64,000 nucleotides of DNA from Octopus vulgaris (lineage: Eukaryota). The position numbers and the translations under genes were made by a program. Of this stretch, positions 18,640-19,232 are shown piece by piece. The notes under the pieces are model-generated. The model was not told the origin of the DNA and did no database searches. It was given only the letters and a program-made list of their open reading frames with translations. Each line of letters begins with the position of its first letter. The first letter of the stretch is position 1. Location: contig OX597821.1 in the NCBI GenBank assembly GCA_951406725.2, positions 103,540,001-103,604,000 of the forward strand. The letters are read 5' to 3'.

Positions 18640-18760
18640 GGAATTATGTACGTTATTTACATGATTTACATTTGACAGATATTTGTCCTCATCTTGTTTG
18701 TTACTAAGACAACATTTCGGCTGGTATACCCTCCAGCCTTCATCAGGTGTCTTGGGGAAT
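18640..18760 (-). mobile_element. Inverted copy of the SINE H tail, with hammerhead motif at 18706-18751, abutting the SINE H head
   Basis: Reverse complement reads CCCCAAGACAC-CTGATGA-AGGCTG..CAGCC-GAAAT-GTT..AAACAAGATGAGGACAAATATC. Confidence 0.82.
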
Positions 18761-18770
18761 TATGCTCACG

Positions 18771-19232
18771 AGCATATAGCATAGTGGTTGGAGCGCGGGC
18801 TACTAACCCCAAGATTCCGAGTCTGATTCCAAGCAGTGACCTAAATAAATAAATAATATTGATAATAATAATAATAATAATAATAATAATAATAATAATA
18901 ATAATAATAATAATAATAATGATAATAATAATAATAATAATAATAATGATAATAATAATAATAATAATAATAATAATAATAATAATAATAATAATAATAA
19001 TAATAATAAAAATAATAATAATAATAATAATAATAATAATAATAATAATAATAATAATAATAATAATAATAATAATAACAACAACAACAACATCGAAAAA
19101 TACCTTAGGAATGAGAACTCAGGTTCGAAATTACCCCAAGGCACCTGATGAAGGCTGGAGGCTATAACACCTGAAACATTGTGTTAACAACAAACAAGAT
19201 GGAGACAAATATCCGTCAAATGTAAATAATAT
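18771..19232 (+). mobile_element. SINE family H, full length (degenerate hammerhead motif at 19140-19185)
   Basis: tRNA-like head AGTGG..GAGCGCGGGCTACTAACCCCAAGATTCC, (AAT)n at 18850-19090, tail with CACCTGATGAAGGCTGG..GAAACATTGTGTT. Confidence 0.87.

What the first reader, a model, noticed from the sequence alone, without database searches (positions are those of the whole stretch)
18640..19232. SINE H copy with an inverted duplicate of its own 3' tail at the 5' end, a Penelope-type insertion signature
Seen: about 10 bp upstream of the tRNA head (18771) sits an inverted copy of the hammerhead-containing tail (18640-18760), so the locus is bracketed by inverted tails with no obvious TSD. Known: PLE insertions often carry a partial pLTR upstream in tandem or inverted orientation. 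Inference: independent structural support that family H uses a PLE-like rather than LINE-like integration route. The locus would also form dsRNA if transcribed.
Basis: partly seen in the sequence, partly recalled or inferred. Interest (0 to 1): 0.72.

Follow-up and report, generated by a model that had tools for sequence, protein, structure and literature searches.

The report
tRNA-headed Penelope repeat inserted back-to-back
This is not a separate SINE but two back-to-back pieces of the end repeat of an abundant protein-coding Penelope jumping gene, which is the known way such elements land; the unusual part is that the repeat begins with a tRNA-like sequence that likely serves as the element's promoter.

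Summary
The inverted arm is real (18625-18761 against 19129-19230, 85-86%). It is not a copy of this SINE's own tail: it carries 25 bases that the right-hand copy lacks. 'Family H' is the pseudo-LTR (pLTR) of a protein-coding Penelope/Poseidon-type element: the head followed the endonuclease gene in 32 of 32 stretches, and the hammerhead tail is the ORF start. Of 88 family loci, 64 have a head-to-head arm within 500 bp (two control SINEs: 7 of 78, 5 of 65). In 61 of 62 resolved pairs exactly one end carries a 33-base extension, and 41 of 62 sit in a ~12-bp TSD (null 1%). So TSDs are normal; here one is unresolved. This signature is published. Less usual: the pLTR starts with a tRNA-like A/B-box head, where 50 of 66 arms that reach it stop, and short copies show no diagnostic differences from ORF-linked ones. 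The head is likely the transcription start, probably for Pol III; untested. The scan reached this reading before on other DNA of this genome.

The parts
18625..18761 (-). Inverted, 5'-truncated pLTR arm (hammerhead/ORF-start region plus extension); long-type end, 8 nt short of the usual end
18625..18649 (-). One-sided PLE 'tail' (25 of the usual 33 nt), absent from the right arm
   Evidence: family pattern
18706..18751 (-). Minimal type I hammerhead motif of the left arm: core and stem II intact, palindromic stem III and one stem I pair lost
   Evidence: read from sequence against the family pattern; architecture per PMC4209133
18762..18769 (+). Palindromic leader just upstream of tRNA position 1; head-to-head junction of the two arms
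18770..18841 (+). tRNA-like head; A box 18777-18787 and B box 18821-18829, both mutated in this copy, intact in the family majority
   Evidence: box motifs recalled; not called by ARAGORN or Rfam
18842..19093 (+). (AAT)n/(AAC)n microsatellite inside the pLTR, expanded in this copy
19094..19230 (+). Sense pLTR arm: start of the PLE ORF (ATG 19111, stop after 18 codons in this copy), short-type end at about 19230-19239
19140..19185 (+). Minimal hammerhead motif of the right arm: core intact, stem II and palindrome decayed
   Evidence: read from sequence
18622..18629 (+). Left copy of a possible 8-bp TSD (unresolved; overlaps the arm by 5 nt)
   Evidence: null
19238..19245 (+). Right copy of the possible 8-bp TSD

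Best explanation
The locus is one insertion of two 5'-truncated, head-to-head copies of the pLTR of a protein-coding Penelope/Poseidon-type retrotransposon, likely made when the element's enzyme cut both DNA strands and started two cDNAs at two sites about 33 bases apart in its RNA. Shown: pLTR identity, head-to-head arms, one long and one short end, a ~12-bp AT-rich TSD round most resolved pairs. Inferred: (1) staggered nicks prime one cDNA each, at the long and the short start site; (2) both run toward the RNA 5' end and are joined by short homologies or the palindromic leader; (3) the RNA begins at the tRNA-like head, so initiation in the 5' pLTR of an ordinary transcript gives a 250-300-base 'SINE-like' product with no separate SINE lineage; (4) the head's A and B boxes are the promoter (Pol III). 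Confidence 0.95 for pLTR identity and PLE integration, 0.6 for two primings, 0.7 that the head marks the transcript start, 0.55 for Pol III; the figure given is for the PLE-pLTR reading with the head as start.
For: Head ~30 nt after the stop codon in 12 of 12 and 20 of 20 stretches picked by the endonuclease C-terminus alone (two places occur in both sets). Tail plus extension runs on into the ORF N-terminus. RVT_1 E 1.2e-9; endonuclease region nearest GIY-YIG clusters, score 0.97, family on 27% of members. Near-full-length L055 has an inverted short-ended arm, a long right end and a 12-bp TSD. In 90 loci: 34 long/short, 27 short/long, 1 short/short, 0 long/long, 1 running on into the ORF; TSD score >=8 in 41 of 62 against 1.1% of 271 shuffled pairs, median 12 bp, 79% AT. 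Inverted arm within 500 bp upstream in 64 of 88, downstream in 0 of 90; control SINEs 7 of 78 and 5 of 65. 5' ends stop at 0.073 per nt in the first 15 nt of the head against 0.0041 in the rest of the head and 0.0022 in the ORF upstream; 23 of 35 in asymmetric pairs. No diagnostic site between 52 ORF-linked and 127 head-starting copies (best p 0.01 of 626 tests). Two RT start sites and two-strand cleavage are shown in vitro for Poseidon of Anolis (PMC11167929, parts 1-2 of 4).
Against: The TSD at this locus is unresolved and the left end is 8 nt short. Loci without a resolved inverted end have a TSD in only 1 of 26, which the model does not explain without later deletion or another joining route. 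Two-armed loci are sampled twice as often by my pattern: corrected share about 54%, and 3 of 8 in random stretches. Palindromes at pLTR 5' ends occur in Adineta PLEs described without a tRNA head, so the pile-up need not mean Pol III. ARAGORN and Rfam do not call the head a tRNA. Pfam gave no GIY-YIG hit for four endonuclease pieces. Junction overlaps (31 of 67) were not tested against a null. Control SINE B shows a small head-to-head excess (5 against 0 tail-to-tail).
Confidence: 0.75

Rival explanations
1. Same element, but one priming: a single cDNA stalls at the palindromic leader, folds back and copies itself, and endonuclease resolution leaves the one-sided tail; the tRNA head is a passenger (an old SINE insertion in the pLTR) and Pol II makes the RNA.
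For: Fold-back self-priming is proposed for Adineta PLEs (PMC3846280, passages). Perfect palindromic junctions occur (L107, L221). Arms of one insertion share slightly more variants than random pairs (57 of 9347 sites against a null mean 0.0041, maximum 0.0057; without CpG 24 of 8723, inside the null range). At this locus the two halves of the leader carry mirrored changes (one case).
Against: Most junctions are asymmetric and off the palindrome centre. 5' ends spread over head positions 1-15 with a mode at tRNA position 1, also in single-arm loci (7 of 14 that reach the head). A and B boxes are intact in the family majority while the acceptor and T stems are broken (read by eye).
Confidence: 0.3
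2. Family H is a true non-autonomous SINE lineage (tRNA head plus captured PLE end) that borrows PLE enzymes.
For: Most insertions are short: 16 of 155 arms reach the ORF; 3,138 exact head cores against 345 exact ORF-head junctions genome-wide (patterns differ in length). Short copies are slightly less diverged (6.0% against 6.9%). Short pLTR copies could be transcribed and re-copied.
Against: The head is part of the autonomous element itself in 32 of 32 stretches; no diagnostic site separates the groups; ORF pieces and pLTR arms mix within single insertions.
Confidence: 0.15
3. Two independent insertions landed next to each other by chance or by homing into an older copy.
For: The arms are only 85-86% alike, no closer than to other copies, and no firm TSD brackets this locus.
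Against: Expected about 0.9% of loci against 64 of 88; 0 of 90 tail-to-tail; long/short pairing in 61 of 62; shared TSD in 41 of 62. This locus fits the long/short rule.
Confidence: 0.03

Closest known systems
EN+ Penelope-like elements, Penelope/Poseidon clade: Poseidon of Anolis carolinensis (PMC11167929), Adineta Pen2a (PMC3846280), overview PMC8557442
   Same: RT then C-terminal GIY-YIG-type ORF; pLTR holding a minimal hammerhead and the ORF start; inverted 5'-truncated arm; 30-40-bp tail on one end only; short AT-rich TSD.
   Different: The pLTR begins with a tRNA-like A/B-box head and a microsatellite; the characterised promoters (D. virilis Penelope, Chlamys-3) lie in the pLTR with an intron and no tRNA head is mentioned in the passages read.
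TRIMp3 elements Helenus, Ajax, Cassandra (PMC10886601; abstract and Discussion read)
   Same: A small-RNA-derived, probable Pol III promoter inside the terminal repeat, proposed to arise by SINE insertion.
   Different: Those are non-autonomous LTR elements with PBS/PPT and 4-5-bp TSDs, and the paper expects their autonomous partners to use Pol II; here the head sits in the repeat of the protein-coding element, a PLE.
Schistosoma Sm-alpha / Sj-alpha SINE-like elements (as reviewed in PMC6765202, passages)
   Same: Apparent Pol III promoter joined to a hammerhead in a short interspersed repeat.
   Different: Described as tandem SINEs with canonical hammerheads and no coding partner sharing the head; family H inserts as head-to-head pairs and is the pLTR of its own ORF.
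Animal non-LTR retrozymes (bioRxiv 10.64898/2026.07.22.740005; parts 1-2 of 5 and term search read)
   Same: Non-coding, hammerhead-bearing repeats derived from PLE pLTRs.
   Different: Retrozymes are direct tandem arrays; the preprint's text has no mention of tRNA, Pol III or octopus. Family H arms are inverted and dispersed.

Membership tests
EN+ PLE (Penelope/Poseidon clade) | Single ORF with RT | tested here: met
   RVT_1 E 1.2e-9; one frame open over most of the ORF in the majority of copies
EN+ PLE (Penelope/Poseidon clade) | C-terminal GIY-YIG endonuclease with CCHH motif | tested here: met
   Atlas clusters with PF01541 on 12-27% of members, score 0.96-0.97; C-x-C between GIY- and YIG-like motifs and two later His read; no Pfam hit
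EN+ PLE (Penelope/Poseidon clade) | pLTR that repeats the ORF start and holds a minimal hammerhead | tested here: met
   51 of 56 pattern-matched arms keep the core, 29 of 56 all features (the pattern favours intact copies); Rfam has no hit
EN+ PLE (Penelope/Poseidon clade) | Inverted 5'-truncated copy, one-sided 30-40-bp tail, short TSD | tested here: met
   61 of 62 long/short, 41 of 62 TSD
EN+ PLE (Penelope/Poseidon clade) | No CX2-5CxxC zinc-finger linker between RT and EN (separates it from Neptune/Nematis) | tested here: met
   absent by eye in translations; criterion from PMC8557442
EN+ PLE (Penelope/Poseidon clade) | Placement in an RT tree with reference PLEs | not tested
   no reference PLE set was fetched
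tRNA-derived SINE (SINE2) | tRNA-derived head with A and B boxes | tested here: met
   best to the genome's tRNA-Arg (z 8.4 and 8.1), Ala 7.6, among 35 sequences of 7 isotype labels; isotype not settled; not called by ARAGORN or Rfam
tRNA-derived SINE (SINE2) | Non-autonomous lineage whose head is absent from the partner element | tested here: not met
   head in 32 of 32 ORF-end stretches; no diagnostic sites
tRNA-derived SINE (SINE2) | Single copy with simple-repeat 3' tail between TSDs (LINE-type insertion) | tested here: not met
   TSDs bracket two-armed units; 1 of 26 other loci has one
tRNA-derived SINE (SINE2) | Transcription by Pol III | not testable with these tools
   needs 5'-end mapping or Pol III occupancy data
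Non-LTR retrozyme | Direct tandem array of hammerhead units | tested here: not met
   arms are inverted in the 90 loci, direct pLTR repeats are rare

The most novel reading that the evidence does not exclude
An autonomous Penelope retrotransposon that swapped to a tRNA-derived Pol III promoter: Pol III reads the whole ~2.7-kb unit (its ORF has no TTTT terminator in the majority of copies), and internal RT initiation in the 5' pLTR turns the same RNA into tens of thousands of SINE-like copies, so element and 'SINE' are one thing.
Probability: 0.3. Interest if true: 0.78.

Novelty: new variant of a known kind. Interest (0 to 1): 0.5.

Why it matters
Two things give it value. First, roughly 50,000 insertions (8 in 400 kb; a rough extrapolation) with a near-strict one-long-one-short rule and ~12-bp TSDs are a large natural test set for the unresolved PLE integration mechanism, and fit the two start sites found in vitro. 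Second, a tRNA-type promoter in the repeat of a coding PLE would blur the SINE/autonomous divide, would mean such repeats are mis-filed as SINEs in annotations, and, if Pol III reads the ORF, would raise how an uncapped RNA is translated. I found no report of it (open-access library only; Repbase/Dfam entries, subscription papers and the supplements of PMC13282606 were not seen and may already list the family).

Tried and rejected
Rfam (gathering and E-value) and ARAGORN found neither tRNA nor hammerhead. Monomer folding does not recover the hammerhead, as expected for a dimeric minimal motif. Sequencing runs: no RNA holder listed; three raw RNA-seq runs of one study, added by species label, gave equal depth in both orientations and no start pile-up, so they say nothing on promoter or strand. 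Search for short stubs or distant TSDs at the 27 unresolved left ends gave none adjacent. The synonymous-shuffle T-run test was out of frame and is discarded; the frame-aware repeat gave P 0.05 and a Markov model P 0.10, so lack of TTTT is only a hint (copies 19 runs in 64.6 kb against 21 in 9.5 kb of 12 other ORFs, one of them a microsatellite artefact). Shared-variant test between arms is borderline. Pfam found no GIY-YIG. One search failed on a script error and was rerun. PMC3653858, PMC6962438, PMC8967140 and PMC13282606 (passages only) did not describe this family.

Full report
Observation. The window shows an inverted pair of arms, 18661-18757 and 19134-19230, 86% complementary (BLAST 18661-18761), round a tRNA-like head and an (AAT)n run. 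Aligned to a real copy with a complete end, the left arm runs on to 18625 and includes 25 nt of an extension that the right arm lacks. So it cannot be a duplicate of this copy's own tail. The head's palindromic leader starts directly at 18762. An 8-bp TSD candidate overlaps the arm end and is not significant alone.

What family H is. The window lies in G000, a 2.8-Gb genome; that it is an octopus is my recall and the wording of earlier notes, not a result. One of 30 tail-picked loci had coding sequence ending just before the head. Searching with that 64-residue piece gave 3,350 candidates. In 12 of 12 loci returned and 20 of 20 further stretches the head followed the stop codon by about 30 nt (two places are in both sets). 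In loci picked by the ORF N-terminus, the tail and extension read straight into the ORF, and the tail translates as the ORF start. [quoted passage not shown] L055 is nearly full length, with an inverted arm and a 12-bp TSD. Contigs of runs labelled organisms A and E also bridge the ORF-head junction. Family H is therefore the pLTR of a Penelope/Poseidon-type element.

I took 90 of the first 91 listed matches on contig C1 to an exact 37-mer (2,373 genome-wide; one left out as the second arm of L201). Ends resolved as 34 long-left/short-right, 27 short-left/long-right, 1 short/short, 0 long/long, 1 long with the right side running into the ORF; 5 had an inverted piece with an unresolved end and 22 none. 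TSD score >=8 in 41 of 62 resolved pairs against 1.1% of 271 shuffled pairs, and in 1 of 26 others; median 12 bp. An inverted arm lay within 500 bp upstream in 64 of 88 loci (2 dropped as running on) and downstream in 0 of 90. Correcting for double sampling gives about 54% two-armed; in 40 random 10-kb stretches 8 held the family and 3 of these an inverted arm. Random adjacency predicts about 0.9%.

Known signature. Inverted pLTR, an optional 31-bp tail and 8-10-bp TSDs are described for Adineta (PMC3846280, passages) and as general PLE features (PMC8557442, passages). Anolis Poseidon cuts and extends both strands and starts reverse transcription at two internal sites that bound the tail (PMC11167929, parts 1-2 of 4). 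The hammerhead has the minimal PLE form: bulge before stem II, palindromic stem III, short stem I (PMC4209133, passages; copy counts). In this copy both ribozyme motifs are decayed.

The head. The majority of 222 head hits aligns best with the genome's own tRNA-Arg genes among 35 sequences of 7 isotype labels and keeps textbook A and B boxes (box motifs recalled), though ARAGORN and Rfam miss it. Of 155 arms, 66 reach the first 15 nt of the head and 50 stop there; 16 go on into the ORF. The stop rate there is 18 times that in the rest of the head and 33 times that in the ORF. ORF-linked (52) and head-starting (127) copies have no diagnostic difference. The simplest reading is that the RNA starts at the head and that RT initiation in the 5' pLTR yields the short copies. 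The ORF lacks TTTT in the majority of copies, a weak hint of Pol III read-through (P 0.05-0.10). Against: PLE pLTRs without such a head also start at palindromes, and no transcript start was observed.

Mechanism and rivals. Two primings at staggered nicks explain the long/short rule and the TSD directly (0.6). Fold-back of one cDNA at the leader remains open (perfect palindromes in L107 and L221; slight excess of shared variants). A separate SINE lineage is unlikely, and chance adjacency is excluded at family level.

Comparison and verdict. It works like, and is, an EN+ PLE insertion; it fails the SINE tests of an independent head and LINE-type insertion. Nearest analogues for the promoter are TRIMp3 elements (PMC10886601, abstract and Discussion) and schistosome hammerhead SINEs (PMC6765202, passages); PLE-derived retrozymes are tandem (bioRxiv 10.64898/2026.07.22.740005). 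Seven searches of the open library found no tRNA-headed pLTR. Earlier notes of this scan reached the same reading on other DNA of this genome; I had formed it before looking and do not count them as support. The flagged feature is already known; the tRNA-headed pLTR makes it a new variant of a known kind. Interest 0.5.

Noticed in passing
window 19546-19815 and 20170-20545: Two copies of a different fold-back element (arms 91-94% complementary) with a ~40-nt extension on one side only, set in (TA)n; looks like stumps of another PLE family. No copy in 400 kb of random sequence.
   Followed up: partly
window 10006-10515 (minus strand): Second family H insertion: full pLTR with short end, joined at its 5' side to a 10-nt inverted stub of the long end, so the long/short rule holds even for tiny arms; TSD weak.
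   Followed up: partly
window 40038-40190: Single-arm family H copy without head, behind a long (AAT)n run next to a SINE.
   Followed up: no
window 18060-18580: Two or three tandem, decayed fragments of another SINE-like repeat directly upstream of the insertion (D9, D11, D12).
   Followed up: no
L103-L132, L163-L222: Insertions without a resolved inverted end almost never have a TSD (1 of 26), unlike two-armed ones (41 of 62): either a second joining route or later deletion of one arm.
   Followed up: partly
L224, L225, L232, L235, L242, L246: Internally deleted units that jump from the ORF N-terminus to the next pLTR end, giving short direct-repeat derivatives that could be non-autonomous sublineages.
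   Followed up: no
L056, L163, L015, L050: ORF fragments of other PLE-like families (one with a cysteine-rich linker) lie in fetched loci; they contain TTTT runs at about 3 per kb.
   Followed up: partly
L258: Cluster of seven tRNA-Cys-like genes within 3 kb, two with altered anticodons (ARAGORN labels).
   Followed up: no
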